Origin: Verrucomicrobiia bacterium | GTDB lineage: Bacteria > Methylomirabilota > Methylomirabilia > Rokubacteriales > CSP1-6 | Direction: 5' to 3' | Assembly: GCA_035493135.1 (NCBI GenBank) | Contig: DATJIR010000380.1 | Span: forward strand, 4,501-68,500 | DNA length: 64,000 nt | In this document: positions 18,129-39,572 of the stretch, piece by piece | Layout of the letters: each line of letters starts with the position of its first letter | Numbering within the stretch: position 1 is the first letter of the stretch | The notes under the pieces: generated by a model | What the model was told of the DNA's origin: nothing | The model's database searches: none | Seen by the model: the letters and a program-made list of their open reading frames with translations, nothing else | Translations under genes and position numbers: made by a program

Positions 18129-18142
18129 CCGGTACCGCTCAC

Positions 18143-19882
18143 GTGTTCTTCAAGGCGCTCGCTTGTGATTTCGACGGGACCCTCGCGGTCGATGACCGGA
18201 TCGGCCCCGCGGTGCGCGCCGCGCTCGAGCGGGCGCGACAGGCGGGTCTCCGGCTGGTGCTCGTGACCGGGCGCACCTTCTTCGAGCTCACGCGCGTGTG
18301 CGACTGCCTGGAGCTCTTCGACGGCGTGGTGGCCGAGAATGGCGCGGTGATCTACTATCCCGGCTCGTCGATGATCCGCGACCAGGGACCCCCGGTGCCC
18401 GGGCGGCTGCTCGGAGAGCTCGAGCGGCGGGGCATCTACTACCAGGTGGGCCGGGTCATCGTCGGCACCGGCCGCGGCGACGAGGCGGCGGTGCGCGAGG
18501 CGCTGGGCGCGGCCGGCGTCACCCGCGACCTGATCCCGAACCGCGCGGCCCTCATGCTCCTGCCCTCCGGCGTGTCCAAGGGCTCGGGGGTCCAGCAGGT
18601 GCTGCGCTTTCTCGAGCTCTCGCCGCACGACGTGCTGGCCCTGGGGGACGCCGAGAACGACCTCGCCCTCTTCGACGCGTGCGGCTTCAGCGCCTGCCCG
18701 GGCAACAGCATCGCGGTCGTCCGCGAGCGCGTCGACTGGGTCTTGCCGGGGGGCGCCGGCGACGACGTCGGCGCCGCGATCGTGGGGCCGGTGCTCGAGG
18801 ACCGGCTCGCGGTGCAGCAGTCCCCGCGTCACCGGATCGCCCTCGGCTGGGGCGCGACCACCAGCGAGCCGATCAAGATCCCCGCCCGCCGGATCAACCT
18901 GCTGATCCACGGCGATCCCCACTCGGGCAAGTCCTGGCTCGCGGGCGCCCTCGTGGAGCGGCTGGTCGGGGCGCGCTACGCGGTCTGCGTCATCGATCCG
19001 GAAGGGGACTACCGGGTCCTCTCACGCCTGCCCGGGGTGGCGTGGGCGGAGGTGATGGAGGCGGGCGACGTGGACGCGGCCCTCGAGCACCTCCAGCACA
19101 ACCCCGACGCCTCCGCGGTGCTGGATCTCTCCACCCGGCCCCACGCCGAGAAGGTCGTCCTGATCGAGCGAGCCCTCCGGCGCATCCGCGAGATGCGCCA
19201 GCGCTTGGGGCGTCCGCACTGGGTCCTGGTCGACGAGGCCCACTACCTGCTGCACGACGGCGGTATCGCGAGCGACGCGCTCGGCCTCGAGGACCGTGGC
19301 TTCTGCTTCGTGACGTACCGACCGCGGTGGGTGTGCGCGGCCGTCATTCAGGCGGTGGACGTGTTCGTCCTCGCGCGGACCACCGCGCTCGACGAGCTCG
19401 CCTTCCTCCGGTCGGCCTTGCCGGTCCTCGACGGAAGCGAGGCGGTGCCGGCCGTGCTCCCACGGCTGCCGCGCGGGCAGTTCCTCATCGCCCAGCGCGA
19501 CCCGGGCGGCCGGGCCACCGCGGTGACCTTCGTGGCCGCGCCGCGCCAGACCGTCCACGTACGCCACCTGACCAAGTACGTGGACTCGCACGTGCCCCCC
19601 GGCCGCGAGTTCCTGTTCCGGGATCGCCGCGATGGGCGGGTCCTCGGATCGGCCAACAGCCTGCAGGCCTTCCGGCGGGTGGTGGCCACCGCGCCCGAGG
19701 GGCCGCTCGCCTACCACGCCGAGCGCGGCGACTTCTCGCGCTGGGTCCGCGACGTCTTCGCCGACCTCGAGCTGGCGCGGCAGCTCGGCAAGGCGGAGAC
19801 GCGCTGGCGGCGCGGCGAGCTGCCGGACCTGCGCGAGGCGATCGACGCGCTGATCACGGTGCGCTACGGGGGCGACGACTAG
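18143..19882 (+). CDS. fusion protein: HAD-IIB (Cof-type) phosphatase + HerA/DUF87-like P-loop ATPase + conserved C-terminal module
   Basis: HAD motif I is ACDFDGTL, motif II LVTGR and motif IV ALGDAENDLALF. The Walker A is IHGDPHSGKSW. VCVIDPEGDY and the Walker B HWVLVDEAHYLL resemble HerA-type ATPases. The C-terminal ~150 aa was not recognised. Confidence 0.8.
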   Translation: MFFKALACDFDGTLAVDDRIGPAVRAALERARQAGLRLVLVTGRTFFELTRVCDCLELFDGVVAENGAVIYYPGSSMIRDQGPPVPGRLLGELERRGIYYQVGRVIVGTGRGDEAAVREALGAAGVTRDLIPNRAALMLLPSGVSKGSGVQQVLRFLELSPHDVLALGDAENDLALFDACGFSACPGNSIAVVRERVDWVLPGGAGDDVGAAIVGPVLEDRLAVQQSPRHRIALGWGATTSEPIKIPARRINLLIHGDPHSGKSWLAGALVERLVGARYAVCVIDPEGDYRVLSRLPGVAWAEVMEAGDVDAALEHLQHNPDASAVLDLSTRPHAEKVVLIERALRRIREMRQRLGRPHWVLVDEAHYLLHDGGIASDALGLEDRGFCFVTYRPRWVCAAVIQAVDVFVLARTTALDELAFLRSALPVLDGSEAVPAVLPRLPRGQFLIAQRDPGGRATAVTFVAAPRQTVHVRHLTKYVDSHVPPGREFLFRDRRDGRVLGSANSLQAFRRVVATAPEGPLAYHAERGDFSRWVRDVFADLELARQLGKAETRWRRGELPDLREAIDALITVRYGGDD

Positions 19883-22408
19883 GTGCCGGTCTCGGCCCCC
19901 TGGGCCCTCGGCATCGAGCAGGCCCTCGCGGGCGCCGCCGGCACCGAGCGGGGCCTCTCGGCCGCGGAGGCGGCCGCGCGACTCGCGACCCGGGGCCCCA
20001 ACGAGCTCGCGCCCCCGCCGCGCTTCGAGGCGCTCCGCGAGCTGCTCCGGTACCTGGCCAACCCGCTGGTCCTGATCCTGCTCGTGGCGAGCGTGGTCTC
20101 GGCCGCGTTCGGGCAGGTGGTCAGCGCGGTGATCATCGCGCTCATGCTGATCTTGAGCGTGGCGCTCAACTTCACGCAGGCCTACCGCTCCCAGCAGGCG
20201 GCCCGGCGCCTCCGACAGCAGGTCGGGCAGACCGCGACCGTGGTCCGCGACGGGGTCGAGCGGGAGATCCCGGTGCGCGAGGTGGTGATCGGCGACGTGA
20301 TCCACCTGAAGGCGGGCGACCTGGTGCCGGCCGATTGCCGTCTGCTCTCGATCCGGGACCTCTTCGTGAACGAGGCCCTGCTCACCGGCGAGTCGCTGCC
20401 GCGCGAGAAGCAGGCGACCCCTGGGCCGCTCCCGCCCGGCGCCGGCGGCCTGGGTGACGCGGTGACCGGGGTGTTCCGCGGCACCTCGGTGGTGAGCGGG
20501 ATCGGCGCCGCGCTGGTGGTGGCCACCGGCGGCGCCACCGAGTTCGGGCGGGTGGCCGCCGGCCTGGTCGGGCGGCCCCCCGAGACCGAGTTCGAGCGCG
20601 GCACCCGCAAGTTCGGCTTCCTCATCCTGCAGGTGGTGGTCTTCCTGGTCCTGTTCGTGTTCCTGGTCAACGCGCTCCTGCGGCGGGATTTCCTCGAGTC
20701 CTTCCTCTTCTCGGTGGCGCTCGCGGTGGGCCTCACGCCCGAGCTCCTGCCCATGATCGTGTCGGTGACCCTGTCGAGCGGCGCGGTCCGCATGGCCGGC
20801 AAGAAGGTCATCGTCAAGCAGCTCGCCGCCATCGAGAACTTCGGCAGCATGGACATCCTCTGCAGCGACAAGACCGGGACCCTCACCCACGGCGAGATCA
20901 CGGTCGACTGCCACGTCAACCTGCGGGGCGAGGACGACGAGACGGTCATCCGGCTCGCCGCGCTGAACAGCGTGTACCAGACCGGACTGCGCAGCCCGAT
21001 GGACGAGGCCATCCTGCGCCACGAGCACCCGGCGGTGACACGCTACCGGCGGATCGACGAGATCCCCTTCGACTTCCAGCGGCGCCGCGTGTCGGTGATC
21101 GTCCAGGACGGCGCGCGGCGTCTCCTGATCACGAAGGGCGCTCCCGAGAGCGTCATGCCGGTCTGCGCCGCGGTCGAGACCGCCGGGACGGCCGGGCGGC
21201 TCGACGCGGGGGCCGGCGCCGCCGCGCAGGCGCTCTTTCACCGGCTGAGCGCCGACGGCTACCGGGCGCTCGCGGTGGCGTACCGGGTGGTGGACGAGCA
21301 GCCCGGCTACGGGGTCGCCGACGAGCGGGACCTCGTCTTCGTGGGCTTCGCCGCCTTTCTCGACCCGCCCTACGAGGGCGTCGCCGATACCCTGCGTGCG
21401 CTGCGGGCGGACGGGATCGAGGTCAAGATCATCACCGGGGACAACGAGCTGGTGACCCGGAAGATCTGCCAGGAGGTCGGCCTCGACGCCGGGGAGATCG
21501 TTCTCGGGGAAGCGGTGGAGCGCATGTCGGATCCGGCGCTCGGGGCGGTGGCGGAGCGGACCCGGGTGTTCGCGCGCGTCTCCCCGATCCAGAAGAACCG
21601 GATCGTGCGGGCGCTCCACGCCCGCGGGCACGTGGTCGGCTGCGTGGGCGACGGCATCAACGACGCCCCTGCCCTGCGCTCGGCCGACGTGGGCATCTCG
21701 GTCCAGAGCGCGGTGGACGTGGCGCGGGACGCCGCCGACATCATCCTGCTCGAGAAGCGGCTGTCGGTGCTGCACGACGGGGTCGTCGAGGGGCGCCGCA
21801 GCTTCGGCAACATCATGAAGTACGTGCTGATGGGCACCAGCTCCAACTTCGGTAACATGCTCAGCATGGCCGCCGCCTCGGTCTTCCTGCCGTTCCTGCC
21901 CATGCTGCCGCTGCAGATCCTGCTCAACAACTTCCTCTACGATCTCTCCCAGGTGCCGATCCCGTCCGACCAGGTGGACGAGACCTACATGCAGAAGCCC
22001 AAGCGCTGGAACATCGCGTTCATCCGGCGCTACATGCTGGTGTTCGGTCCGCTCTCGTCCGCCTTCGACTTCCTCACCTTCGCGGTGATGCTCGGGGTGT
22101 TCCACGCCGACCCGGTCCTGTTCCGCACCGGCTGGTTCGTCGAGTCGCTCGCCACCCAGACCCTGGTGATCTTCGTGATCCGCACCGCCGATCGCCCCTG
22201 GCGGAGCCGCCCGAGCCGCGGGCTCGTCTGGGGCGTGACCGCCTGCGCGACGGTGGGCGCCCTGCTCCCGTTCACGCCGGCGGCCCCGTGGCTCGGCTTC
22301 ACGCCGCTGCCGCCGCCGTTCTTCGCGGGGCTGCTCGGCATGGTGGTGGTGTACCTGGCGCTCGTGGAGGTGGTGAAGCGCTGGTTCTATCGGCGCTATC
22401 CGATGTGA
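19883..22408 (+). CDS. mgtA: magnesium-translocating P-type ATPase
   Basis: CSDKTGTLT is the phosphorylation site. TGDNELV and VGDGINDAPALRSADVGISV are present. It has ten TM segments, and the C-terminus ...VEVVKRWFYRRYPM is typical of MgtA/MgtB. GTG 19883 directly abuts the upstream TAG. Confidence 0.9.
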   Translation: MPVSAPWALGIEQALAGAAGTERGLSAAEAAARLATRGPNELAPPPRFEALRELLRYLANPLVLILLVASVVSAAFGQVVSAVIIALMLILSVALNFTQAYRSQQAARRLRQQVGQTATVVRDGVEREIPVREVVIGDVIHLKAGDLVPADCRLLSIRDLFVNEALLTGESLPREKQATPGPLPPGAGGLGDAVTGVFRGTSVVSGIGAALVVATGGATEFGRVAAGLVGRPPETEFERGTRKFGFLILQVVVFLVLFVFLVNALLRRDFLESFLFSVALAVGLTPELLPMIVSVTLSSGAVRMAGKKVIVKQLAAIENFGSMDILCSDKTGTLTHGEITVDCHVNLRGEDDETVIRLAALNSVYQTGLRSPMDEAILRHEHPAVTRYRRIDEIPFDFQRRRVSVIVQDGARRLLITKGAPESVMPVCAAVETAGTAGRLDAGAGAAAQALFHRLSADGYRALAVAYRVVDEQPGYGVADERDLVFVGFAAFLDPPYEGVADTLRALRADGIEVKIITGDNELVTRKICQEVGLDAGEIVLGEAVERMSDPALGAVAERTRVFARVSPIQKNRIVRALHARGHVVGCVGDGINDAPALRSADVGISVQSAVDVARDAADIILLEKRLSVLHDGVVEGRRSFGNIMKYVLMGTSSNFGNMLSMAAASVFLPFLPMLPLQILLNNFLYDLSQVPIPSDQVDETYMQKPKRWNIAFIRRYMLVFGPLSSAFDFLTFAVMLGVFHADPVLFRTGWFVESLATQTLVIFVIRTADRPWRSRPSRGLVWGVTACATVGALLPFTPAAPWLGFTPLPPPFFAGLLGMVVVYLALVEVVKRWFYRRYPM

Positions 22409-26632: not shown

Positions 26633-26648
26633 TGGCACCCGCGTTGCA
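26633..26648 (+). promoter_or_regulatory. sigma-54 promoter (TGGCACccgcgTTGCA)
   Basis: A perfect consensus whose 16-mer is identical to 33187-33202. The -12 C lies 41 nt upstream of ATG 26688. Confidence 0.8.
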
Positions 26649-26687
26649 CCCGCTCCTCTCCCAGAAGGCCAACCGAGGAGGAGCGCG

Positions 26688-27050
26688 ATGGATGCCCGGT
26701 TCGATTCGACCCTGCACGCGGAGTTCCGCCGTCGGCTCCTCGCGAGCCGTGAGAGCCTCCTGCGCACGGTGGCCGCCAGCGACGAGGAGGTGTCGGCGCT
26801 CGAGGCGCCGGGACCCGGCGACTCGCCAGACCACGCCTCGGCCCGCTCGATCGCCACGCTGATGTCGCGGCTGGCGGGTCAGGAGAAGCGCGAGCTCGAC
26901 GAGGTGGCGGCCGCGCTGCGCCGGCTCGGGTCGGGCGCGTACGGCGTGTGTGAGAGCTGCCGCGAGCCCATCGCGCTCGCGCGGCTGCGGGCGGTGCCCG
27001 CGACGCGCTGCTGTGTGCATTGTCAGGCCAGCCAGGAGGTCGTTCCGTGA
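26688..27050 (+). CDS. DksA/TraR-family C4 zinc-finger protein
   Basis: The C-terminus GVCESCREPIALARLRAVPATRCCVHC is the CxxC-N17-CxxC DksA/TraR finger, preceded by a coiled-coil-like region. GGAGGAG lies upstream of the ATG. Confidence 0.8.
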   Translation: MDARFDSTLHAEFRRRLLASRESLLRTVAASDEEVSALEAPGPGDSPDHASARSIATLMSRLAGQEKRELDEVAAALRRLGSGAYGVCESCREPIALARLRAVPATRCCVHCQASQEVVP

Positions 27051-27352
27051 TCAAGGGAATGCTGCTGATGCTCTTGCTGGCCGCCGGCGCCGAGGCGCAA
27101 GACGGCGCGCTGGTGGCCCGGGGGCAGGGCGTCTTCAAGGACCAGGGCTGCTACGGCTGCCACACCGTGGGCAAGACGGGCACGCCGATCGCGACGGACC
27201 TCTCCCGGATCGGCGCGAAGCACGACGAGGCGTATCTCGGGGCGTGGCTGCGCGACCCCTCGCAGCAGAAGCCGCGGCAGCACATGCCCAAGCTCAAGCT
27301 GACCGAGGCCGAGGTGAAGGCCCTGGCCGCCTACCTCGGATCGCTGCGGTGA
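27047..27352 (+). CDS. monohaem c-type cytochrome (class I-like), secreted
   Basis: The signal-like N-terminus is IKGMLLMLLLAAGAEA. The haem site is CYGCH and the distal Met region is QHMPK. GTG 27047 lies in a GTGA overlap with AGGAGG 8 nt upstream. Confidence 0.85.
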   Translation: MIKGMLLMLLLAAGAEAQDGALVARGQGVFKDQGCYGCHTVGKTGTPIATDLSRIGAKHDEAYLGAWLRDPSQQKPRQHMPKLKLTEAEVKALAAYLGSLR

Positions 27353-27385
27353 TCCGGAGACCCCGGCGCGGCTGAGCAGGCGGGC

Positions 27386-28480
27386 ATGGCGCGCCCACGC
27401 CACATCGGGGTCCTGACCGCGGGGGGCGACTGCCCCGGGATGAACGCGGCGGTGCGCGCGGTGGTGAAGACCGCGGAGCACCGGCACGAGCTGCGGGTGA
27501 CCGGCTTCCTCGACGGCTTCGCCGGGCTGCTCGCGGACCGCGCCCGTCCGCTCGGCTTCGACGACGTGGCCGGCATTCTCGTGCAGGGCGGCACCATGCT
27601 CGGCGCCTCCAACCGCGACGATCCGTTTCGCGTGCCGATCGCGGGCGGCGGCTACGAGGATCGATCGGACGCGGTGCTGGCCACCGCGGCGCGGCACCGG
27701 CTCGACGGGCTGGTGGTGGTCGGCGGCGACGGCAGCCTCACGATCGCCCGCCGGCTCGCCGCCCGCGGCCTGCCGATCGTCGGCATCCCGAAGACCATCG
27801 ACAACGACGTGTCGGGCACCGACATCACGGTGGGCTTCGACTCGGCGCTGTGCGTGGCGACCGAGGCGCTCGATCGGCTGCACAGCACCGCCGCGGCCCA
27901 TCACCGCGTCATGGTCGTCGAGGTGATGGGCCGGCAGGCGGGCTGGATCGCCCTCGAGGCCGGCATCGCGGCGGGCGGGGACGTGATCCTGATCCCGGAG
28001 ATCCCGTTCCGCTACGAGGCCGCCGCCGCCGGCATCGTCGCGCGCGCCCATCGCGGCCGCCGCTTCTCGATCGTGGTGGTGGCGGAGGGAGCCCTCTGTC
28101 CCGACGGAGGCCCGGTGGTGCGCGAACGCGTCGCGGACAGCCCGGAGCCGATCCGCCTGGGCGGGGTGGGAGCGGTGGTCTCCCACGCGCTGGAGTCCCT
28201 CGTGCCCTTCGAGGTGCGCTGCGTCGTGCTCGGGCACCTGCAGCGCGGCGGCGGCCCGACCCCGTTCGATCGGATGCTGGCGACCCGGTTCGGGGTCGCG
28301 GCGGTGACCGCGCTCGCCGAGGGCGACTCCGGGTGCATGGTGGCCCTGCGCGGCGATCGGATCGAGCGCGTGCCCATCGACGAGACCGTCACCCGCCCGC
28401 GCCTCGTCGACCCGCGCGGGGAGCGCGTGACGGTGGCGCGCAGCGTGGGGACGATCTTCGGCGACGAGGTCCCCGCCTAG
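27386..28480 (+). CDS. pfkA: ATP-dependent 6-phosphofructokinase
   Basis: IGVLTAGGDCPGMNAAVRAVV, VVVGGDGS, GIPKTIDNDV and VMGRQAGWIAL are classic PFK motifs. Confidence 0.95.
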   Translation: MARPRHIGVLTAGGDCPGMNAAVRAVVKTAEHRHELRVTGFLDGFAGLLADRARPLGFDDVAGILVQGGTMLGASNRDDPFRVPIAGGGYEDRSDAVLATAARHRLDGLVVVGGDGSLTIARRLAARGLPIVGIPKTIDNDVSGTDITVGFDSALCVATEALDRLHSTAAAHHRVMVVEVMGRQAGWIALEAGIAAGGDVILIPEIPFRYEAAAAGIVARAHRGRRFSIVVVAEGALCPDGGPVVRERVADSPEPIRLGGVGAVVSHALESLVPFEVRCVVLGHLQRGGGPTPFDRMLATRFGVAAVTALAEGDSGCMVALRGDRIERVPIDETVTRPRLVDPRGERVTVARSVGTIFGDEVPA

Positions 28481-30862: not shown

Positions 30863-33073
<2,211 letters not shown>

Positions 33074-33096
33074 GGCCCGGGCCGCATCAAGGGGCC

Positions 33097-33134
33097 CTGG
33101 GGCGCCGTCGCCACAGCGAGGCGGGGCCGCCTCG
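33097..33134. promoter_or_regulatory. candidate enhancer sites: dyad CTGGGGCGccgtcgCCACAG plus adjacent palindrome CGAGGCGGggCCGCCTCG
   Basis: The first dyad starts exactly 90 bp upstream of the TGGCAC, as at 5613/5703. The block ...CGCCTCGGCA is shared with the first hsp20 promoter. Confidence 0.5.
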
Positions 33135-33186
33135 GCAGTCGTCGACCTCTCGGGCCGTAACTTACCGAATCGATGAGGATCTCCCG

Positions 33187-33202
33187 TGGCACCCGCGTTG
33201 CA
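33187..33202 (+). promoter_or_regulatory. sigma-54 promoter (TGGCACccgcgTTGCA)
   Basis: A perfect consensus. The -12 C lies 49 nt upstream of ATG 33250. Confidence 0.85.
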
Positions 33203-33249
33203 ATTCTTGCCGGGGGGGCGCGTGACGCTCGAGGAGGGAGGAGACCACC

Positions 33250-33681
33250 ATGATGCGCGGGCTGATGCCGTGGACGGGAATCGAGAGCCTGCAGCGGGAG
33301 ATGGACCGGCTGCTCGATCGCATCGCGCGGGTCAAGCGCACGGAGCTACCGGCGCTGGGGGACTGGGTGCCCAGCCTGGACGTCGCCGAGACCGCGGACA
33401 GCCTGGTCGCGACCGTCGAGGTGCCGGGGCTGGAGCGGCAGGACGTCGAGATCGCGCTGCACGACGGCCTGCTCACGATCACGGGGGAGAAGCGCCGGGA
33501 GCCCAAGGCGCGCTATCATCACGCGGAGCGAGCCTGCGGGACCTTCGTCCGCAGCCTGCGGCTGCCGATGGCGGTGGACGCGGCGCGGGTGACCGCGACG
33601 GTCAAGAACGGGCTCCTGACCGTGACGCTGCCCAAGACGCCCGCGGCGCGGGGCACCATGATCCCGATCGGGGAGGTCTAG
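33250..33681 (+). CDS. Hsp20/alpha-crystallin small heat-shock protein (paralogue of 5774-6211)
   Basis: It has the same architecture as the first hsp20. The C-terminal NGLLTVTLPKTPAA(R/K)GTMIPI is near-identical. GGAGGGAGGAG lies upstream. Confidence 0.95.
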   Translation: MMRGLMPWTGIESLQREMDRLLDRIARVKRTELPALGDWVPSLDVAETADSLVATVEVPGLERQDVEIALHDGLLTITGEKRREPKARYHHAERACGTFVRSLRLPMAVDAARVTATVKNGLLTVTLPKTPAARGTMIPIGEV

Positions 33682-33685
33682 CACC

Positions 33686-34126
33686 ATGTTCTACCGGATC
33701 ATCGTCCCGACCGACTTCTCGTCCTGCTCGGAGGAAGCGTGGCGCCTCGCCCAGCGCCTCGCCGGCATGTCCGGCGCGGAACTGGTGCTGACCCACGTGC
33801 TGAGCGAGGCCCCGCTGTTCCGCGAGGGCCCGTTCATCATGCCCAAGGTGCGCGAGGTCTTCGAGGCGGCCCGGAGCTTCGCCGATGCCGCGCTCGAGGA
33901 GTGGGTGGCCAAGGCGCGGGCCGAGGGTCTCTCGGCGCGCGCGGCGCTCCGCAGCGGCGTGGCCTACCAGGAGATCGTCACGCTCGCGGGAGACGAGCGG
34001 GCCGACCTCGTCGTCATCGGCACCCACGGCCGCGGCGGGATCGATCGCGTGCTGCTCGGCAGCGTGGCCGACCGGGTGGTCCGGCTCGCGCCGTGCCCGG
34101 TGCTCACGGTCCGCGAGCCCGCCTGA
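33686..34126 (+). CDS. universal stress protein
   Basis: MFYRIIVPTDFS... and ...IGTHGRGGIDRVLLGSVADRVVRLAPCPVLTV. Confidence 0.9.
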   Translation: MFYRIIVPTDFSSCSEEAWRLAQRLAGMSGAELVLTHVLSEAPLFREGPFIMPKVREVFEAARSFADAALEEWVAKARAEGLSARAALRSGVAYQEIVTLAGDERADLVVIGTHGRGGIDRVLLGSVADRVVRLAPCPVLTVREPA

Positions 34127-34131
34127 GCGCC

Positions 34132-34554
34132 ATGACGCCGGACGTCGGGGCGCGCGGCGGCACGGTGGGCGACTGGATGAGCAAGCCGCCAATGGCGGTG
34201 GCCGAGGACACCCCGATCCGCGCCGCCATCGCCCAGATGGAGCGCGCCGATGTCCGCCACCTGCTCGTGATGGACGGCCCGGTGCTCACCGGCATCCTCT
34301 CCATTCGCGATCTGCGACGGATAGTGGGCCGCGAGTCGGGGGAGCCGGCTCTCTCCGCGCCGGTGCGCTCCATCATGAGCGAGGGCCCGCTCGGCGTGGG
34401 TCGCGGGGTGCCGATGACGATAACGGCGCGGCTCCTGCTCGAGCGCCGCATCGGCGCGCTCCCGGTCTGGGACGGCGAGCAGGTGGTGGGCGTCTTCACG
34501 GCCACGGACGCCCTCGAGGCGCTGCTGGCGATCGCCGAGAGGTCCCACGCGTGA
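34132..34554 (+). CDS. CBS-pair domain protein
   Basis: The CBS repeats are ...VRHLLVMDGPVLTGILSIRDL and IGALPVWDGEQVVGVFTATDAL. ATG 34132 lies 5 nt after the USP stop. Confidence 0.85.
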   Translation: MTPDVGARGGTVGDWMSKPPMAVAEDTPIRAAIAQMERADVRHLLVMDGPVLTGILSIRDLRRIVGRESGEPALSAPVRSIMSEGPLGVGRGVPMTITARLLLERRIGALPVWDGEQVVGVFTATDALEALLAIAERSHA

Positions 34555-36641
34555 GCGGTTCGCTCGTTCCGTTCCTCGACCCAGGCAGCGTGGCGGTGAT
34601 CGGGGCCTCGCGCGATCCGTTCAAGGTCGGCGGCAGCGTCATCGCCAACCTGCGCTCGGCCGGCTTCCGCGGCCGCATCATCCCGGTCAACTCGCGCGCG
34701 AGCACCGTGCAGGGCCTGGCCGCGGTGCCGCGGGTGCAGGACGTCGACGGCCCGGTGGACCTGGCCGTGATCGCGGTGCCCGCGGTCGACGTCCTGCCCG
34801 TGCTCGTGCAGTGCGTGGCCAAGGGAGTGGGCGGCGCGGTGGTGATCTCGGCCGGCTTCCGGGAGATCGGCGGGGAGGGCGCGCGGCGGGAGGCGCAGCT
34901 GCGCGAGTGGCTGCGGGGCCAGCCGATCCGCGTGCTGGGCCCGAACTGCCTCGGCTGGATCCGGCCGACCCGGCGCCTCAACGTGACGTTCGCCCCCGGC
35001 ATGCCCGATCCGGGCGGCATCGCCTTCGTCTCGCACTCCGGCGCGCTCGCGGTGGCGATCCTCGACTGGGCGCGCGACCGCCGGGTCGGCTTCTCCCTCT
35101 TCGCCTCGCTCGGCAACCAGGCCGACGTCAACGAGAGCGACCTGCTCGACGCGGTGGCCACCGATCCGGAGACGCGCGTGATCGCCGGCTACATCGAGGG
35201 CGTGGCCGACGGCCGCCGGTTCCTCGACGCGCTCCGGCGGGCCGCCGCGGTCAAGCCGGTGGTGCTGCTGAAGGCGGGCCGCTCCGCGGAGGGCGCGCGG
35301 GCGGTCTCCTCGCACACCGGCGCGCTCGCCGGCTCCGATCGGGCCTTCGACGCGGCGGTCCGGCAGGCGGGCGCGCTGCGCGTCGATACCGTCGCCGAGC
35401 TGTTCGACGTCGCGCGTGGGCTCGGGAGCCAGCCGATGCCGCGCGGCCGCCGGCTGGTGGTGGTGACCAACGGCGGCGGGCTCGGCATCGTCGCCACGGA
35501 CGCGGCGCGCGCCGCCGGTTTCACCATGGAGCCGCCCGCGGAGCCGCTGCGCCGGCGCCTCGCCGAGGGGCTGCCCGCGACTGCCGGGCTCGGCAACCCG
35601 GTGGACCTGGTGGGCGACGCCGACGCGCGCCGGTACGGCCACGCGCTGCACACCCTGGGCAGCGACAGCGCCGACGCGATGCTCGTGTTGTTGACGCCGC
35701 AGGCCGCGACCGACGCGGCCAGCGTGGCGCGGACCATCGCGGGCGCCACCCTCGGCTGGTCGATCCCGGTGGTCGCGGCCTTCGTGGGCGGCGCGCGCGT
35801 GGCCCCCGGGGTGCGCACGCTCGAGGAGGCGGGCATCCCGTGCTACGCGTTCCCCGAGCCCGCGGTGAAGACCCTGGCCGGCATGGCGCGGCTCGGCGAG
35901 CGTCGCCTCGCGGCTCCGGGGTCCTTCGTGCCGTCGGTCGATCCGGCCGCGGCCCGCGCCTGGCTCGCCGAGCAGGGCGGCCCGGCGGCGCGCCAGCTCG
36001 GCACGCCGGAGCTGCTGCCGCTGCTCGCCGCCTACGGCATCCCCGGCGTCGGCGGCCGCGTGGTCAAGAGCGCCGACGACGCGGCGGCCGCGGCGGAGCG
36101 TCTCGGCTTCCCGGTGGCGCTCAAGATCGTCTCGCCCGACATCACCCACAAGACCGAGGTGGGCGGTGTGGCCCTCGCCCTGCGCGACGCGGGCGCGGTG
36201 CGCGAGGCGGCGGCGGCCATGCTGACGCGTGTCGCGACGGCGCGGCCGCAGGCCACGATCCGCGGGCTGCTCGTCGAGGCCATGGCCCCGGCCGGCAAGG
36301 AGCTGCTGCTGGGCGGCGTGCGCGATTCGCAGTGGGGCCCGGTCCTGATGGTCGGGCTCGGCGGCATCTACGTCGAGGTCATTGGCGACACCGTGGTGTG
36401 CCTGGCCCCGGTCTCGCCCGACGAGGCGGCGACCCTCCTCGACGAGCTCCGCATCGCCCCGCTGCTCCGCGGCATCCGCGGCGAGCGGCCGGTGGATCGC
36501 CCCGCGCTGGCCGGCATCATCAGCCGGTTCTCGCAGCTGCTGGTGGATCTCCCCGAGCTGCGGGAGATCGAGATCAACCCCCTGCTGGCGAGCCCGGACG
36601 GCGTGATCGCGGTGGACGCGCGGGCGCGCCTCGACGCCTAG
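34551..36641 (+). CDS. ADP-forming acetyl-CoA synthetase / acetate-CoA ligase (fused alpha-beta: CoA-binding, succinyl-CoA-synthetase-like and ATP-grasp domains)
   Basis: VAVIGASRDPFKVGG is the CoA-binding motif. GPNCLG and FVSHSGAL mark the phospho-His region. The C-terminal ATP-grasp has GFPVALKIVSPDITHKTEVGGV. GTG 34551 lies in a GTGA overlap. Confidence 0.85.
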   Translation: MSGSLVPFLDPGSVAVIGASRDPFKVGGSVIANLRSAGFRGRIIPVNSRASTVQGLAAVPRVQDVDGPVDLAVIAVPAVDVLPVLVQCVAKGVGGAVVISAGFREIGGEGARREAQLREWLRGQPIRVLGPNCLGWIRPTRRLNVTFAPGMPDPGGIAFVSHSGALAVAILDWARDRRVGFSLFASLGNQADVNESDLLDAVATDPETRVIAGYIEGVADGRRFLDALRRAAAVKPVVLLKAGRSAEGARAVSSHTGALAGSDRAFDAAVRQAGALRVDTVAELFDVARGLGSQPMPRGRRLVVVTNGGGLGIVATDAARAAGFTMEPPAEPLRRRLAEGLPATAGLGNPVDLVGDADARRYGHALHTLGSDSADAMLVLLTPQAATDAASVARTIAGATLGWSIPVVAAFVGGARVAPGVRTLEEAGIPCYAFPEPAVKTLAGMARLGERRLAAPGSFVPSVDPAAARAWLAEQGGPAARQLGTPELLPLLAAYGIPGVGGRVVKSADDAAAAAERLGFPVALKIVSPDITHKTEVGGVALALRDAGAVREAAAAMLTRVATARPQATIRGLLVEAMAPAGKELLLGGVRDSQWGPVLMVGLGGIYVEVIGDTVVCLAPVSPDEAATLLDELRIAPLLRGIRGERPVDRPALAGIISRFSQLLVDLPELREIEINPLLASPDGVIAVDARARLDA

Positions 36642-36650
36642 GAGAGCTCG

Positions 36651-37118
36651 ATGGCCGCTCCGCGAAGCTATCGCCGCATCGTGGTCGGGCTGGACGGGTC
36701 GGCCCACTCGCGCCGGGCCGCCGCCTTCGTCGCGCGGCTCCGTCCGCCGCGGGGCGGCCGGGTGACGTGCGTGCGGGTGGTCGAGCCGGTGCGGCTGCCG
36801 TCGATGCCGCTCGTGCCGGGGCCCATGCGCGCGCAGATCGCGGCGCAGGCGGCCGCGATGGAGCGGGGTCGCCGGGCGGTGGCCCGGCGCCAGGTCGATT
36901 GGGCGGCGGCGCTGCTGGCCAAGGCCGGCTGGCGCGCGCGCGGTGTCCTGCGCACCGGTCTCCCGCTGCGGGAGCTACTGGCCGCGGTCCGCGCGGAGAG
37001 GGCGGACGTGCTGGTGGTGGGGGCGCGCGGCGCGGGCGCGGTGACCCACTTCCTGCTGGGGAGCGTCGCGGAAGCCGCGCTGAAGCGCTCGCCCGTCGAG
37101 GTGCTGGTGGTCAAGTGA
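36651..37118 (+). CDS. universal stress protein
   Basis: YRRIVVGLDGSAHS... and ...VGARGAGAVTHFLLGSVAEAALKRSPVEVLVV. Confidence 0.85.
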   Translation: MAAPRSYRRIVVGLDGSAHSRRAAAFVARLRPPRGGRVTCVRVVEPVRLPSMPLVPGPMRAQIAAQAAAMERGRRAVARRQVDWAAALLAKAGWRARGVLRTGLPLRELLAAVRAERADVLVVGARGAGAVTHFLLGSVAEAALKRSPVEVLVVK

Positions 37119-37132
37119 GCGAGGAGGCCGAC

Positions 37133-37702
37133 ATGCGACCCACCGAGATTCTCTTCCCGACCGACTTCTCCCCCGCCTCCGAGGCGGCGGGCCGTATCGC
37201 CCGGGCCATGGCCCTCGAGGCCGGGGCCCGCCTGCACGTGCTGCACGTGGTGCCTCCGGTCACCGATCCGTCGACCTTCTCGGAGCGACTCGCGCACGCG
37301 GCACAGGCTCTCGCCGAGGGGCTCCGGGTGGAGACCGCGCTCCGCACCGGGCTGGCCGGGCGGACCATCGTCGACTACGCGCGCGAGAAGGGGATCGGCC
37401 TGGTCGTGCTCGGCACGCACGGGCGCACGGGGTGGAGCCACGCGATCCTGGGCAGCGTCGCCGAGACGGTGGTGCGGCTCGCGCCCTGCCCGATCCTCAC
37501 CGTGCCGGCCGGGTCGCTCGAGCCGGCGGGCGCGGCCACGCCCGCGGCGACCGCCGCGCCGACCCCGCCGCGGCCCTGCCTCGTGTGCGGCAAGCCGAGC
37601 GACGAGCTGATCTGCGAGCCCTGCCGCGCGCACATCCGCGCGGAGGCGATGGACCAGAAGCGGGAGGCCGAGCGCCCCGGGCGCCGCGGCATGCCGGTAT
37701 GA
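37133..37702 (+). CDS. universal stress protein with C-terminal CxxC-N8-CxxC extension
   Basis: MRPTEILFPTDFS... and ...LGTHGRTGWSHAILGSVAETVVRLAPCPILTV form the USP domain. A Pro/Ala linker follows, then PCLVCGKPSDELICEPCRAH. Confidence 0.85.
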   Translation: MRPTEILFPTDFSPASEAAGRIARAMALEAGARLHVLHVVPPVTDPSTFSERLAHAAQALAEGLRVETALRTGLAGRTIVDYAREKGIGLVVLGTHGRTGWSHAILGSVAETVVRLAPCPILTVPAGSLEPAGAATPAATAAPTPPRPCLVCGKPSDELICEPCRAHIRAEAMDQKREAERPGRRGMPV

Positions 37703-37728
37703 GCGAGGCCGAGAGAGGAGGACGCCCC

Positions 37729-38178
37729 ATGCGAGTCGACGAGCTCATGACGAGGAATCCCATCACGGTCAAGCCGGGAACCGGGGTGCTCGACGCGCGG
37801 CACATGATGGTGGAGAAGCAGATCCGACACCTGCTGGTCGTCGGCCCCGACGGGCTCCTGGCCGGGATGGTGACCGATCGGGACATCCGGCTCAACCTGC
37901 CCTCGCAGGCCACGAGCCTCTCGGTGTGGGAGGTCAACCACCTCCTGACCAAGCTCACGGTGGGGGAGGTCATGACCAAGACCGTGATCACGGTCGGGCC
38001 CGATCGCGACGCACGGGCCGCCGCGGTCCTGATGCTCGACCACAAGATCGGCGCGCTGCCGGTGACCGATGGCGGCAAGCTGATCGGGATCGTCACCGAG
38101 ACCGACATCCTGCGCGGCTTCGTGTGGCTGACCGGCGGGGCGACCGCGGCGCACCCGGAGCCGTACCGCCGGCCCTGA
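37729..38178 (+). CDS. CBS-pair domain protein
   Basis: The CBS repeats are IRHLLVVGPDGLLAGMVTDRDI and IGALPVTDGGKLIGIVTETDIL. GAGAGGAGGA lies upstream. Confidence 0.9.
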   Translation: MRVDELMTRNPITVKPGTGVLDARHMMVEKQIRHLLVVGPDGLLAGMVTDRDIRLNLPSQATSLSVWEVNHLLTKLTVGEVMTKTVITVGPDRDARAAAVLMLDHKIGALPVTDGGKLIGIVTETDILRGFVWLTGGATAAHPEPYRRP

Positions 38179-38245
38179 TCGTCCGCCGAGCGCGGGTGGC
38201 AGGCGACCCGGTGCCGTGGCAGACTGGCGCCGGGAGGTATCGTCC

Positions 38246-38683
38246 ATGTCCACGCCCCGCCCCGCTCCGTCGAGCCGGCCGCCCGGCTGGCAGCAAGAGC
38301 ATGCCCGCCGCTACCTCGCGACCGGCGGCCAGGACGGTCACATCTGGGAGGGCGTGACGACCCTCCTGCTGACCACGACCGGCCGCCGCTCCGGCCAGGC
38401 GCGCACCACCCCACTGATCTACGGACGCGACGGCGAGCGCTACGTGGTGGTGGCGTCCCGCGGCGGCGCCCCGGCGCATCCGGCGTGGTACGACAATCTC
38501 GTCGCGCAGCCCACGGTGCAGGTGCAGGTGATGGCGGATCGGTTCACCGCGCGCGCCCGCACCGCCACCCCGGCCGAGCGGCCGGCGCTGTGGCGGACGA
38601 TGGCCGCGATCTGGCCGCCCTACGACGACTACCAGGCGCGGACCACGCGCGAGATCCCGGTCGTCGTCCTCGAGCGCGTCTGA
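38246..38683 (+). CDS. deazaflavin (F420)-dependent nitroreductase family protein (Ddn/DUF385-like)
   Basis: LLLTTTGRRSGQARTTPLIYGRDGERYVVVASRGGAPAHPAWYDNL matches the Ddn-family core, from memory. GGGAGG lies upstream of ATG 38246. Confidence 0.8.
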   Translation: MSTPRPAPSSRPPGWQQEHARRYLATGGQDGHIWEGVTTLLLTTTGRRSGQARTTPLIYGRDGERYVVVASRGGAPAHPAWYDNLVAQPTVQVQVMADRFTARARTATPAERPALWRTMAAIWPPYDDYQARTTREIPVVVLERV

Positions 38684-38699
38684 GGGTGGCGGGCGCCCC

Positions 38700-39572
38700 A
38701 TGAGCGAGACCTCGCGCCCGGTCGCCCAGGTCGTCAAGCCGGAACCGGTGGTAGAAGGGGCCGGGGTGCATCTCCGGCGCAGCATCGGCACGCGGCGTCT
38801 CGACCACCTCGATCCGTTCCTGCTCCTCGACCACTTCGAGTCGGTCCGCCCCGAGGACTACGAGGCCGGGTTTCCCTACCACCCGCACCGCGGGATCGAG
38901 ACGGTGACGTTCGTCCGCACCGGGGAGGTGCAGCACCGCGACTCGCTCGGCCACCACGGGAGCATCGGGCCCGGCGACATCCAGTGGATGACCTCCGGCA
39001 GCGGGATCCTCCACGAGGAGATGCCGCAGGTGCGGCCCGAGGGGATCGGGGGGCTGCAGCTCTGGCTCAACCTGCCCGCGCGCGAGAAGATGACGCGGCC
39101 GAAGTACCGCGACCTGACCGGGGACCACCTGCCCGAGACCCCGCTCGACGGCGGCGCGCGGGCGCGCGTCGTCGCGGGCGAGGCGGCCGGCGGGCGGCTC
39201 ACCGGACCGGTCGACGGCCTCGCGGTGGCGCCGAAGTTCCTCGACGTGACGCTGCCCGCCGGCGCCGCGTTCCGCGAGGCGGTGCCGCGCGGGCACACCG
39301 CGTTCGCGTACGTGGACCAGGGCGAGGTGCGCTTCGGCCCGCAGCGGACCGCGGCGCGCGCTCCGGCGCTCGTGGTATTCGGCGACGGCGATCTCGTGGA
39401 GGCGGCCGGCGCGCCCGGAGGCGGGCGCTTCCTCCTCGCGGCGGCGCGCCCGCTCGGCGAGCCGATCGCCCGGCACGGGCCGTTCGTCATGAACACCCGC
39501 GCCGAGATCGATGAGGCGCTGCAGGATCTGAGGACCGGTCACTTCATCCGCGAAGATCCCCGCGACGCCTAG
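38700..39572 (+). CDS. pirin family protein
   Basis: FPYHPHRGIETVTFV...GDIQWMTSGSGILHEEMP is the pirin metal-binding cupin signature. Confidence 0.9.
   Translation: MSETSRPVAQVVKPEPVVEGAGVHLRRSIGTRRLDHLDPFLLLDHFESVRPEDYEAGFPYHPHRGIETVTFVRTGEVQHRDSLGHHGSIGPGDIQWMTSGSGILHEEMPQVRPEGIGGLQLWLNLPAREKMTRPKYRDLTGDHLPETPLDGGARARVVAGEAAGGRLTGPVDGLAVAPKFLDVTLPAGAAFREAVPRGHTAFAYVDQGEVRFGPQRTAARAPALVVFGDGDLVEAAGAPGGGRFLLAAARPLGEPIARHGPFVMNTRAEIDEALQDLRTGHFIREDPRDA

What the first reader, a model, noticed from the sequence alone, without database searches (positions are those of the whole stretch)
33187..38178. Sigma-54-driven seven-gene operon hsp20-USP-CBS-(ADP-forming acetyl-CoA synthetase)-USP-USP(Zn)-CBS
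All seven genes are co-directional with gaps of at most 26 nt or a GTGA overlap (34551). They follow a perfect sigma-54 promoter. The only catalytic gene is a fused ADP-forming acetyl-CoA synthetase, an enzyme that makes ATP from acetyl-CoA by substrate-level phosphorylation. It is embedded among nucleotide-binding sensor or regulator modules (3 USP, 2 CBS pairs) and a chaperone. This looks like a dedicated low-energy or hypoxia survival module. The USP and CBS proteins may gate the synthetase according to adenylate status. The gene content parallels the mycobacterial DosR dormancy regulon, which has an alpha-crystallin, many USPs, the CBS protein Hrp1 and Pfk. Here, however, it is wired to sigma-54, which actinobacteria lack.
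Basis: inference. Interest (0 to 1): 0.6.

Follow-up and report, generated by a model that had tools for sequence, protein, structure and literature searches.

The report
Sigma-54 low-oxygen stress operon, Rokubacteria
An uncultured soil bacterium (Rokubacteria) puts an ATP-yielding acyl-CoA enzyme, a small heat-shock protein and five small nucleotide-binding stress proteins in one operon that belongs to a larger sigma-54 regulon probably switched on by a haem-type oxygen sensor; it is a differently wired version of known low-oxygen survival gene sets.

Summary
Seven co-directional genes (hsp20, USP, CBS, ADP-forming acyl-CoA synthetase, USP, USP with a CxxC-x8-CxxC tail, CBS) follow an exact sigma-54 promoter, with gaps of 26 nt or less. 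The unit probably continues into an F420H2-quinone-reductase-like gene and a pirin gene.

The operon is one member of a regulon. An 18-bp dyad (TGGGGC-N6-GCCCCA) lies 70-110 nt upstream of about 16 of the genome's 62 sigma-54 promoters (1.3 expected). It is conserved across the order.

I identified a likely regulator pair:
- the divergent histidine kinase, whose second PAS domain matches FixL/DosP haem sensors;
- an NtrC-type activator that sits inside the synthetase cluster in one relative and next to the kinase in another.

Other regulon members point to oxygen or energy limitation. They include cbb3 and other haem-copper oxidases, NrfHA, phosphofructokinase, malic enzyme and a hibernation-factor-like protein.

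Direct gating of the synthetase by the USP and CBS proteins is not supported. These genes occur across the regulon, and the zinc-tailed USP and the synthetase each occur without the other.

The closest known systems are the mycobacterial DosR regulon and the Burkholderia lxa locus. The scan already found this operon on other DNA (e1-3094655). No transcript data could be obtained.

The parts
30863..33073 (-). Divergent sensor histidine kinase (CHASE3, PAS, haem-PAS-like PAS, HisKA, HATPase). The likely true start is the GTG at 33028.
   Evidence: Pfam. The transmitter domain is most similar to AtoS, ZraS and NtrB kinases, which pair with sigma-54 activators. PAS2 best matches FixL/DosP haem-PAS structures, with the proximal His aligned. 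The divergent position is conserved in G009, G013, G007, G001, G018 and G014.
33062..33089 (-). Conserved sigma-70-like promoter for the kinase gene (TTGATG-N17-CACAAT on the minus strand). Inferred.
   Evidence: The block ATTGTGGGCCAAG...(C/A)TCAAG is conserved in all seven orthologous intergenic regions. The promoter reading is my inference, at 8 of 12 consensus positions.
33098..33115 (+). Enhancer (UAS) dyad 1, TGGGGCGCCGTCGCCACA.
   Evidence: It lies at -89 from TGGCAC and is conserved at that position in orthologous promoters.
33117..33134 (+). Enhancer (UAS) dyad 2, CGAGGCGGGGCCGCCTCG, a perfect palindrome set 19 bp from dyad 1.
33158..33170 (+). IHF-like bend site (TAAC-N3-YYGAAT) between the enhancer and the promoter. 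Inferred.
   Evidence: The block is conserved in the orthologue alignment. Relatives read TAACGGGTTGAAT, one mismatch from YAANNNNTTGATW.
33187..33202 (+). Sigma-54 promoter TGGCACCCGCGTTGCA.
   Evidence: All orthologues keep it.
33250..33681 (+). Small heat-shock protein (Hsp20/alpha-crystallin).
   Evidence: Pfam 2e-20. It is present in this position only in G000, G009 and G010.
33686..34126 (+). USP1, of the ATP-binding class.
   Evidence: Pfam 5e-34. Motif at residue 112. Best PDB match is MJ0577.
34132..34554 (+). CBS pair 1. Its stop overlaps the synthetase start (GTGA).
   Evidence: Pfam 3e-22.
34551..36641 (+). Fused NDP-forming acyl-CoA synthetase (ACD) with catalytic His255 and His533.
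   Evidence: Pfam. PDB 8wzu at 3.5e-137; the histidines are present, unlike in Pat acetyltransferases.
36651..37118 (+). USP2, of the ATP-binding class.
   Evidence: Pfam 7e-24. Motif found.
37133..37702 (+). USP3 with a conserved C-terminal CxxC-x8-CxxC tail and a basic helix.
   Evidence: Pfam 1e-27. Tail conserved in seven orthologues.
37729..38178 (+). CBS pair 2, AcuB-like Bateman module without an ACT domain.
   Evidence: Pfam 3e-31. PDB 5awe at 8e-35 and the AcuB entries.
38246..38683 (+). F420H2-dependent quinone reductase-like protein, a probable eighth gene.
   Evidence: Pfam 3e-46. It follows the synthetase/USP genes in G009, G008 and G003 as well. No terminator was found in the 67-nt gap.
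38700..39572 (+). Pirin, a probable ninth and last gene. The next gene converges on it.
   Evidence: Pfam. The gap is 16 nt.

Best explanation
The genes form one sigma-54-dependent transcription unit, probably nine genes long. It is one operon of a regulon found across the order Rokubacteriales (Methylomirabilota). An NtrC-type response regulator with REC, AAA+ (GAFTGA) and HTH domains binds tandem 18-bp dyads (TGGGGC-N6-GCCCCA) about 70-110 bp upstream of the -24 element. With a DNA bend in between, it activates sigma-54 holoenzyme. Its likely partner is the kinase encoded divergently from this operon. That kinase has a periplasmic CHASE3 domain and a FixL/DosP-like PAS domain, so it most plausibly reports falling oxygen (or NO, CO or redox state). 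When the system is on, the cell co-induces three groups of genes: (a) alternative respiration (cbb3 and other haem-copper oxidases, NrfHA, a formate/nitrite channel nearby); (b) substrate-level ATP supply (this synthetase running acyl-CoA + ADP + Pi -> acid + ATP, phosphofructokinase, malic enzyme); (c) stasis protection (Hsp20s, USPs, CBS proteins, an S30AE-like hibernation factor, BON protein, RtcB). What the sequence analysis shows: gene content, promoter, enhancer motif and its genome-wide and cross-genome enrichment, regulator linkage, and intact catalytic residues. What remains inferred: the signal, the direction of the synthetase reaction, and the kinase-regulator pairing.
For: Promoter and genes. 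Enhancer: the strict dyad lies upstream of 10 of 62 sigma-54 promoters against 0.65 expected, and the relaxed dyad upstream of 16 of 62 against 1.3 expected. It keeps the same position in orthologous promoters of six relatives. It is present at 26 of 35 sigma-54 promoters in relatives' loci. The composite dyad+promoter pattern gives 17 hits in five genomes and 0 in the reversed control. Regulator: the activator on C210 directly precedes a dyad-bearing promoter in this genome and in most orthologous loci (9 of the 15 that show a sigma-54 promoter there). In G007 it lies inside the synthetase cluster, and in G040 and G030 it is about 10 kb away. In G002 the kinase and activator orthologues are adjacent. 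Within the genus, both are present in 10 genomes, the kinase alone in 2, the activator alone in 0, and neither in 8. Signal: PAS2 matches only haem-PAS sensors at the top of the PDB list, with the proximal His aligned. Regulon content includes CcoNO/CcoP/CcoG, malic enzyme, an S30AE-like protein, BON and USPs. It also includes COX2-COX1-ACD in another family and NrfH-NrfA behind the next promoter in G007, and PFK, a P-type ATPase, DUF2267 and a second Hsp20 in the window. Enzyme: His255 and His533 are present. Experimental precedent: the low-oxygen lxa locus of B. cenocepacia has USPs flanking acetate kinase, plus an alpha-crystallin and a cation ATPase (PMC3721108). DosR regulon content is listed in PMC3177182.
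Against: Operon structure and induction are therefore untested. Haem binding by PAS2 is only a homology inference. One FixL distal arginine is not aligned, and the CHASE3 domain suggests an additional, unknown periplasmic signal. Some regulon members (SCPU fimbriae, amine oxidase, HlyD, radical SAM) do not fit a pure hypoxia theme. The closest characterised homologue of the synthetase (4-hydroxybutyrate-CoA ligase) works in the acid-activating direction. An acetate kinase exists elsewhere in the genome. The genome is a fragmented MAG at 81% completeness, and the activator lies on a different contig.
Confidence: 0.6

Rival explanations
1. One reading: the USP and CBS proteins bind ATP or AMP, physically contact the synthetase, and switch it according to adenylate charge.
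For: At least one USP or CBS gene lies next to the synthetase in all 14 Methylomirabilota loci. CBS1 and the synthetase are translationally coupled through the GTGA overlap. All three USPs have the ATP-binding motif. CBS2 is closest to AcuB Bateman modules. AcuB is an adenylate and Ap4A sensor that controls acetyl-CoA synthetase activity in Bacilli (PMC13121692, PMC13039410).
Against: The partner set is not fixed. G007 has neither USP1, CBS1 nor USP2. G018 lacks CBS1. The f4 family has COX2-COX1-unknown-ACD. USP3Zn is found without the synthetase orthologue in G002, G016, G022 and G028, and the synthetase without USP3Zn in G003, G008 and all f4 genomes. USP and CBS genes also sit in other operons of the regulon. 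Only 3 of 66 distant ACD loci have a USP neighbour. AcuB acts through an ACT domain on the deacetylase AcuC, and both are absent here.
Confidence: 0.12
2. The regulon answers a signal other than oxygen, such as starvation, stationary phase, envelope or osmotic stress, or nitrogen status. Under this reading the operon is a general stasis module.
For: The kinase has a periplasmic CHASE3 domain of unknown ligand. Regulon members include BON/DUF5670, fimbriae, HlyD and amine oxidase. Sigma-54 regulons often serve nutrient limitation. USPs and Hsp20 proteins are general stress proteins.
Against: PAS2 is FixL/DosP-like. High-affinity and alternative oxidases and NrfHA share the enhancer. The synthetase is co-transcribed with a haem-copper oxidase in two lineages.
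Confidence: 0.2
3. The synthetase runs in the acid-activating direction, making an acyl-CoA from an organic acid and ATP (for example a hydroxy-acid or aryl acid), rather than yielding ATP from acetyl-CoA.
For: The best structural and NCBIfam matches are 4-hydroxybutyrate-CoA and 3-hydroxypropionate-CoA ligases (ADP-forming), which act synthetically. No acetate equivalog cut-off is reached. A second, widely conserved ACD paralogue (37% identity) could be the housekeeping acetate enzyme.
Against: The reaction is reversible in this family. The co-regulated genes (PFK, malic enzyme, oxidases) fit energy conservation better. The scores to the hydroxy-acid ligases are far below their cut-offs (528 against 1300 bits).
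Confidence: 0.2
4. The seven genes are not one transcript. Under this reading internal promoters or processing split them, and the sigma-54 promoter serves only the first genes.
For: Promoter and terminator scans are weak tools in a genome with 72% G+C. The 26-nt and 67-nt gaps could hold unrecognised signals.
Against: No sigma-70-like, sigma-54 or terminator-like sites were found inside 33250-39572. The gaps are 26 nt or less with one overlap. The same order and spacing hold in five relatives.
Confidence: 0.08

Closest known systems
Mycobacterium tuberculosis DosR/DevR dormancy regulon (PMC3177182)
   Same: Overlapping gene content: alpha-crystallin, several ATP-binding USPs, a stand-alone CBS protein (Rv2626c), a P-type ATPase (ctpF), a phosphofructokinase gene in the hspX operon, an RtcB homologue (Rv2631; that it is RtcB rests on my own knowledge), a translation-inhibitor/S30AE-like protein (Rv0079), and a nitrite/nitrate transporter. 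Both use tandem 18-20-bp dyads and a haem-based kinase.
   Different: DosR is a NarL/LuxR-type regulator acting at sigma-70-type promoters. Its kinases sense through GAF-haem domains. There is no ADP-forming synthetase in that regulon. Here the activator is NtrC-type with sigma-54, the sensor is PAS-type, and the dyad sequence differs. Sequence similarity of CBS2 to Rv2626c is only moderate (8e-10).
Low-oxygen-activated (lxa) locus of Burkholderia cenocepacia J2315 (PMC3721108)
   Same: It is experimentally induced by low oxygen and needed for anoxic survival. It is a clustered island with one shared dyad motif before many operons. It has six USPs, four of them flanking acetate kinase, the functional counterpart of the synthetase here. 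It also has an alpha-crystallin, a cation ATPase, and BON-type 'phospholipid-binding' proteins.
   Different: Its motif is Anr/FNR-like (TGA-N6-TCA), with CRP-family regulators and sigma-70-type promoters. It uses AckA plus a phosphotransacetylase instead of a one-enzyme ADP-forming synthetase. It is proteobacterial.
FixL/FixJ and DosP haem-PAS oxygen sensors; NtrY/NtrX (the latter from my own knowledge)
   Same: PAS2 of the kinase aligns with the FixL and DosP haem domains, including the proximal histidine. NtrY/NtrX also couples a haem-PAS kinase to an NtrC-family regulator that controls oxidases and nitrogen-oxide respiration.
   Different: FixJ is not a sigma-54 activator. NtrX of alpha-proteobacteria is reported to lack the GAFTGA loop, whereas this activator has it. 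Haem binding was not tested here.
AcuB of Bacilli, the energy and Ap4A sensor of the acu operon (PMC13121692, PMC13039410)
   Same: It is a Bateman (CBS-pair) protein encoded next to an acetyl-CoA synthetase gene that reads adenine nucleotides. CBS2's best PDB matches are AcuB-type proteins.
   Different: AcuB has a C-terminal ACT domain that inhibits the deacetylase AcuC, and its target enzyme is AMP-forming AcsA. Here there is no ACT domain and no AcuA or AcuC in the operon, and the enzyme is ADP-forming.
NDP-forming acyl-CoA synthetases (archaeal ACD, PDB 4xyl; Nitrosopumilus 4-hydroxybutyrate-CoA ligase, PDB 8wzu) and Pat protein acetyltransferases
   Same: The domain set is the same, with both phosphohistidine sites (His255, His533). 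The fused alpha-beta order matches 8wzu.
   Different: The substrate is unknown, because the protein scores below every NCBIfam equivalog cut-off. Unlike Pat, it has no GNAT domain and keeps the catalytic His.

Membership tests
Sigma-54-dependent promoter / bEBP-activated operon | -24 GG and -12 GC elements with canonical spacing (TGGCAC-N5-TTGC) | tested here: met
   Exact match at 33187-33202. There are 5 exact matches in the window against 0.06 expected. The promoter is conserved in orthologues.
Sigma-54-dependent promoter / bEBP-activated operon | rpoN and a GAFTGA-bearing AAA+ activator encoded in the genome | tested here: met
   Sigma54_AID match on C219. About 16 Sigma54_activat matches. 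The candidate activator has GESGTGKE and GAFTGA.
Sigma-54-dependent promoter / bEBP-activated operon | Upstream activator sequence shared by co-regulated promoters | tested here: met
   The dyad lies upstream of 16 of 62 promoters against 1.3 expected. It is present at 26 of 35 promoters in relatives. The composite pattern gives 17 hits against 0 in the control.
Sigma-54-dependent promoter / bEBP-activated operon | Transcription depends on RpoN and the activator | not testable with these tools
NDP-forming acyl-CoA synthetase (ACD) superfamily | CoA-binding, CoA-ligase and ATP-grasp domains | tested here: met
   Pfam CoA_binding_2, Succ_CoA_lig, Ligase_CoA_2 (weak) and ATP-grasp_5.
NDP-forming acyl-CoA synthetase (ACD) superfamily | Phosphohistidine in the SHTGA loop and a second His in the HK(S/T)(D/E)VGGV motif | tested here: met
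   His255 and His533.
Acetate-specific ADP-forming acetyl-CoA synthetase | Score above a curated equivalog cut-off, or measured acetate/acetyl-CoA activity | tested here: not met
   TIGR02717 scores 507 bits against a cut-off of 567. NF045494 scores 399 against 1200. NF045493 (4-hydroxybutyrate ligase) scores 528 against 1300. Activity is not testable here.
Pat/YfiQ-type protein lysine acetyltransferase | C-terminal GNAT domain, with the catalytic His of the ACD-like domain lost | tested here: not met
   The protein ends after the ATP-grasp domain. The His is present where Pat (9it0) lacks it.
Universal stress protein, ATP-binding (MJ0577/UspFG) class | Usp fold plus G-x2-G-x9-G-(S/T) | tested here: met
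   Pfam. The motif is present in all three USPs. The best PDB match is MJ0577.
AcuB-type energy sensor | Bateman module plus C-terminal ACT domain, encoded with AcuA and AcuC | tested here: not met
   CBS2 is 149 aa with only a CBS pair. No GNAT or HDAC gene is in the operon. Similarity is limited to the Bateman part.
DosR/DevR regulon | NarL/LuxR-type DosR binding Dev boxes at sigma-70-type promoters, with GAF-haem kinases DosS and DosT | tested here: not met
   The promoters are sigma-54 type. The linked regulator is NtrC-type. The kinase sensor is PAS-type. Only the gene content overlaps.
lxa-type low-oxygen locus | Anr/FNR-like TGA-N6-TCA motif before the operons, and low-oxygen induction | tested here: not met
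   The shared motif here is TGGGGC-N6-GCCCCA, placed upstream of sigma-54 promoters. Induction is not testable. Gene content is similar.
Haem-PAS oxygen-sensor kinase (FixL-like) | PAS domain homologous to haem-PAS with the proximal His conserved | tested here: met
   The top 14 PDB matches are a related multi-sensor histidine kinase PAS domain (10jx, ligand not stated) followed by FixL, DosP and EcDOS haem domains. 'RAAH' aligns with FixL 'RSRH'.
Haem-PAS oxygen-sensor kinase (FixL-like) | Binds haem, and O2 regulates autophosphorylation | not testable with these tools
   This needs purified protein. The FixL equivalog score is 182 bits against a cut-off of 850.

The most novel reading that the evidence does not exclude
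The small USP and CBS proteins, including the USP with a conserved zinc-ribbon tail, form nucleotide-dependent complexes with the ADP-forming synthetase and gate ATP-yielding acetate formation by adenylate charge. This would be an AcuB-like energy-sensing logic, but acting directly on an ADP-forming enzyme without acetylation.
Probability: 0.12. Interest if true: 0.7.

Novelty: new variant of a known kind. Interest (0 to 1): 0.45.

Why it matters
Rokubacteria are abundant and uncultured in soils and aquifers, where oxygen fluctuates. This analysis gives a concrete, testable regulatory circuit for how they may ride out anoxia or energy shortage. The circuit comprises a sensor kinase, an NtrC-type activator, an 18-bp enhancer, a sigma-54 promoter and at least 16 target operons. 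If correct, essentially the same survival gene set (alpha-crystallin, USPs, a CBS protein, a P-type ATPase, a glycolytic kinase, an acetate/ATP enzyme, a hibernation factor, RtcB) has been placed under three unrelated control systems. These are DosR in actinobacteria, Anr/FNR in Burkholderia, and sigma-54/NtrC here. That recurrence argues that the gene set is a recurrent functional module rather than a lineage quirk. The enhancer motif can also be used to predict the regulon in any Rokubacterial MAG.

Tried and rejected
2. Sigma-70 promoter and intrinsic terminator scans inside the operon found nothing. Folding of the intergenic gaps was no better than shuffles. This is uninformative in 72% G+C DNA and does not prove one transcript.
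3. Full-text searches combining ADP-forming acetyl-CoA synthetase with USP, or Rokubacteria with sigma-54, returned nothing. A search on RpoN, USP and hypoxia gave one irrelevant paper.
4. The dyad motif alone is not enriched in the window (7 against 4.25 expected). Only its position relative to sigma-54 promoters is significant.
5. I considered that the enzyme is a degenerate Pat-like regulatory domain. I rejected this because both catalytic histidines are present and there is no GNAT domain.
6. I considered an obligate USP3Zn-synthetase pair. I rejected this on phylogenetic profile.
7. I considered that the synthetase is the only acetate/ATP route. I rejected this because an acetate kinase exists on C246, although no phosphotransacetylase was found in this 81%-complete MAG.
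8. I looked for a second sigma-54 promoter on the kinase side of the intergenic region. The conserved block has the wrong GG-GC spacing and fits a sigma-70-like TTGAAG-N17-CACAAT better.

Full report
**What is there.** The window is contig C380:4501-68500 of an 81%-complete, 409-contig MAG. Its close relatives are labelled Candidatus Methylomirabilota / Rokubacteria, and G+C is 72%.

- Hsp20, 33250-33681
- USP, 33686-34126
- CBS pair, 34132-34554
- a 696-aa fused CoA_binding/Succ_CoA_lig/ATP-grasp_5 protein, 34551-36641
- USP, 36651-37118
- USP, 37133-37702
- CBS pair, 37729-38178

The junctions are +4, +5, -4 (GTGA), +9, +14 and +26 nt. TGGCACCCGCGTTGCA at 33187-33202 is an exact sigma-54 -24/-12 element, 48 nt upstream of the hsp20 ATG. 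The exact core occurs five times in the window, always on the + strand in front of a gene, against 0.06 expected. The genome has rpoN and about 16 sigma-54 activators, none of them on this contig.

No sigma-70-like promoter or terminator-like site lies inside the unit. The 67-nt gap after CBS2 folds no better than shuffled sequence. An F420H2-quinone-reductase-like gene (38246-38683) and a pirin gene (38700-39572) follow before a convergent gene. The unit is therefore probably nine genes long.

**The proteins.**
- *Synthetase.* It keeps both phosphohistidine sites of NDP-forming acyl-CoA synthetases: His255 in SHTGA and His533 in HKTEVGG. Its best structural homologue is the ADP-forming 4-hydroxybutyrate-CoA ligase 8wzu (3.5e-137). 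Pat acetyltransferases align over the same region but lack the first His and carry a GNAT domain that is absent here. It misses every NCBIfam equivalog cut-off, so 'acetyl' is a reasonable default, not a result. A 37%-identical paralogue on C386 is present in nearly all relatives. An acetate kinase also exists, on C246.
- *USPs.* All three have the ATP-binding motif.
- *USP3.* It ends in CLVCGKPSDELICEPC followed by a basic helix, strongly conserved in seven orthologues from two genera.
- *CBS2.* It is closest to AcuB-type Bateman modules (5awe, 8e-35) but has no ACT domain. Rv2626c scores 8e-10.

**Synteny.** Synthetase orthologues (64% identity or more) occur in about half of the genus and in a second family of the order.
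- In G013, G001 and G014 the order is sigma-54 promoter, USP1, CBS1, ACD, USP2, USP3Zn, CBS2, with the kinase divergent.
- G018 lacks CBS1.
- Hsp20 leads only in this genome, G009 and G010.
- G008 and G003 have ACD-USP2-F420 reductase.
- In G007 the promoter directly precedes ACD, followed by USP3Zn, COX2, COX1, CBS2 and an NtrC-type activator (Pfam).
- In the other family the order is promoter, COX2, COX1, an unknown gene, then ACD.

All 14 Methylomirabilota loci have a USP or CBS gene next to the synthetase. Only 3 of 66 loci from other phyla (45% identity or less) do.

**The operon belongs to a regulon.** I aligned the orthologous promoter regions. This exposed two tandem 18-bp dyads upstream of the promoter: TGGGGCGCCGTCGCCACA at 33098-33115 and CGAGGCGGGGCCGCCTCG at 33117-33134. 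It also exposed a conserved IHF-like block (33158-33170) and a conserved block nearer the kinase gene. That last block reads as a sigma-70-like promoter on the minus strand; this is my inference.

Genome-wide, TGGCA[CT]-N5-TTGC occurs 62 times, and 59 of these have a co-directional gene within 300 nt. Enrichment figures for the dyad are as follows:
- The strict dyad GGGGC-N6-GCC[TAC]C occurs 200 times in the genome, yet lies within 260 nt upstream of 10 of the 62 promoters (0.65 expected).
- A relaxed form lies at -70 to -126 of 16 promoters (1.3 expected).
- In loci from relatives, 26 of 35 sigma-54 promoters carry it. In the second family it appears as the perfect palindrome TGGGGC-N6-GCCCCA.
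- A composite dyad-spacer-promoter pattern gives 17 hits in five genomes and none in the reversed control, often three within 8-55 kb.

I derived both independently and then added the genome-wide and cross-genome statistics.

**Regulon content.**
- *In the window*: a second Hsp20; a HAD-ATPase fusion plus an Mg-type P-type ATPase; DUF302 (with RtcB downstream); an unknown protein plus DUF2267; and DksA/TraR, cytochrome c and phosphofructokinase behind the identical 16-mer promoter.
- *Elsewhere in the genome*: a CcoNO fusion with CcoP and CcoG (cbb3 oxidase); malic enzyme with an enoyl-CoA hydratase; an S30AE/hibernation-factor-like protein; two further USPs; BON plus DUF5670; SCPU fimbriae; an amine oxidase; a radical-SAM protein; and an HlyD protein.
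- *In G007:* NrfH-NrfA follow the promoter downstream of the activator.

**The regulator pair.** Contig C210 carries a REC-AAA+(GAFTGA)-HTH activator immediately upstream of a dyad-bearing sigma-54 promoter. That promoter drives a USP, two kinase-like genes and a CBS gene. A P-type ATPase lies further along the same strand and is followed by a second dyad-bearing promoter that drives the S30AE-like gene. A dyad-bearing sigma-54 promoter follows the activator gene in most orthologous loci (9 of the 15 that show a sigma-54 promoter there).

The activator orthologue lies inside the synthetase cluster in G007. It is about 10 kb from the synthetase in G040 and G030, and about 50 kb away in G013. 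The kinase divergent from the operon has a transmitter most like AtoS, ZraS and NtrB, which partner with sigma-54 activators. In G002 the kinase orthologue (C57:1370-2809) is directly followed by the activator orthologue (2922-4313), with USP3Zn divergent. Within the genus the two genes co-occur: both in 10 genomes, kinase only in 2, activator only in 0, neither in 8. Related genomes are not independent samples.

The kinase's second PAS domain finds, at the top of the PDB list, a related multi-sensor kinase PAS domain (10jx) and then only FixL, DosP and EcDOS haem domains (3.6e-16 to 3e-10 for the top 14), and the proximal histidine aligns. That makes oxygen, or another haem ligand, the most plausible signal, but haem binding is untested. 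The CHASE3 domain implies a further input.

**Does the USP/CBS set gate the enzyme?** The recent AcuB work shows that a Bateman protein can read adenylates or Ap4A and control acetyl-CoA synthetase (PMC13121692, PMC13039410). The idea is therefore respectable.

The comparative data argue against a specific partnership:
- The neighbour set varies between relatives.
- USP and CBS genes are spread over many operons of the regulon.
- USP3Zn occurs without the synthetase orthologue in G002, G016, G022 and G028.
- The synthetase occurs without USP3Zn in G003, G008 and the whole second family.
- AcuB's effector part, the ACT domain acting on AcuC, is missing.

I put this reading at about 0.12.

**Comparison with known systems.**
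- *DosR regulon.* The gene-content overlap is real (PMC3177182). The regulator class, the promoter class and the sensor domain all differ.
- *B. cenocepacia lxa locus.* This is the best functional precedent. It is a low-oxygen-induced island with one shared dyad, an alpha-crystallin, a cation ATPase and USPs flanking acetate kinase, and it is needed for anoxic survival. It runs on an Anr/FNR-like motif (PMC3721108).
- *Earlier scan result.* The scan has already reported essentially this operon from another Rokubacterial genome (e1-3094655).

**Verdict.** This is a new wiring variant of a known kind of system, a clustered low-oxygen or stasis regulon. The signal, the single transcript and the direction of the enzyme reaction remain inferences, because no expression data could be reached.

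Noticed in passing
G000 contig C210 (17,956 bp; not in the window), about 2680-13311, minus strand: This is a second piece of the same regulon. It reads: NtrC-type activator, sigma-54 promoter with dyad, USP, a phosphotransferase-like gene, a tandem double APS-kinase/AAA_33 protein, and a CBS pair. A Pat-type GNAT lies on the opposite strand. A P-type ATPase follows, then a second sigma-54 promoter and an S30AE-like protein. In G013 the equivalent regions lie within about 55 kb on one contig, so C210 and C380 may be neighbours in the real genome.
   Followed up: partly
window 37577-37702 (USP3 residues 149-189): A CxxC-x8-CxxC motif plus a basic helix is appended to a USP domain. It is very strongly conserved across two genera and matches no Pfam family. 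The same USP sits divergent from the kinase-activator pair in G002, which suggests a role tied to the signalling system rather than to the synthetase.
   Followed up: partly
window 33062-33091: A conserved block, ATTGTGGGCCAAG-N10-(C/A)TCAAG, lies between the kinase gene and the enhancer. On the minus strand it reads TTGATG-N17-CACAAT, a sigma-70-like promoter. If this reading is right, the kinase starts at the GTG at 33028, not at the TTG at 33073.
   Followed up: partly
window 26633-28480: The identical promoter 16-mer (TGGCACCCGCGTTGCA) with a palindromic dyad drives a DksA/TraR zinc-finger protein, a small cytochrome c and an ATP-phosphofructokinase.
   Followed up: partly
window 18113-22408: A sigma-54 promoter lies in front of a HAD-IIB phosphatase/P-loop ATPase fusion and an Mg2+-type P-type ATPase (TIGR01524 at 898 bits, above its cut-off). 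The canonical dyad was not found upstream of this promoter.
   Followed up: no
window 5614-6211: A second Hsp20 gene has tandem dyads (5614-5631, 5633-5650) and a promoter one mismatch from consensus (TGGCACTCGCGATGC at 5703).
   Followed up: partly
L024 (G007:C20) 372-2486 and 5900-8037, minus strand: In a relative, a haem-copper oxidase (COX2, COX1) is inserted in the synthetase operon. NrfH-NrfA (cytochrome c nitrite reductase) follow the next dyad-bearing sigma-54 promoter.
   Followed up: partly
L035 and L038 (public records DATHSW010000229.1, DATJFY010000132.1): Two contigs carry this operon at 77-82% identity but are labelled Deferrimicrobiaceae and Verrucomicrobiia. They are probably mis-binned or mislabelled Rokubacterial contigs.
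   Followed up: no
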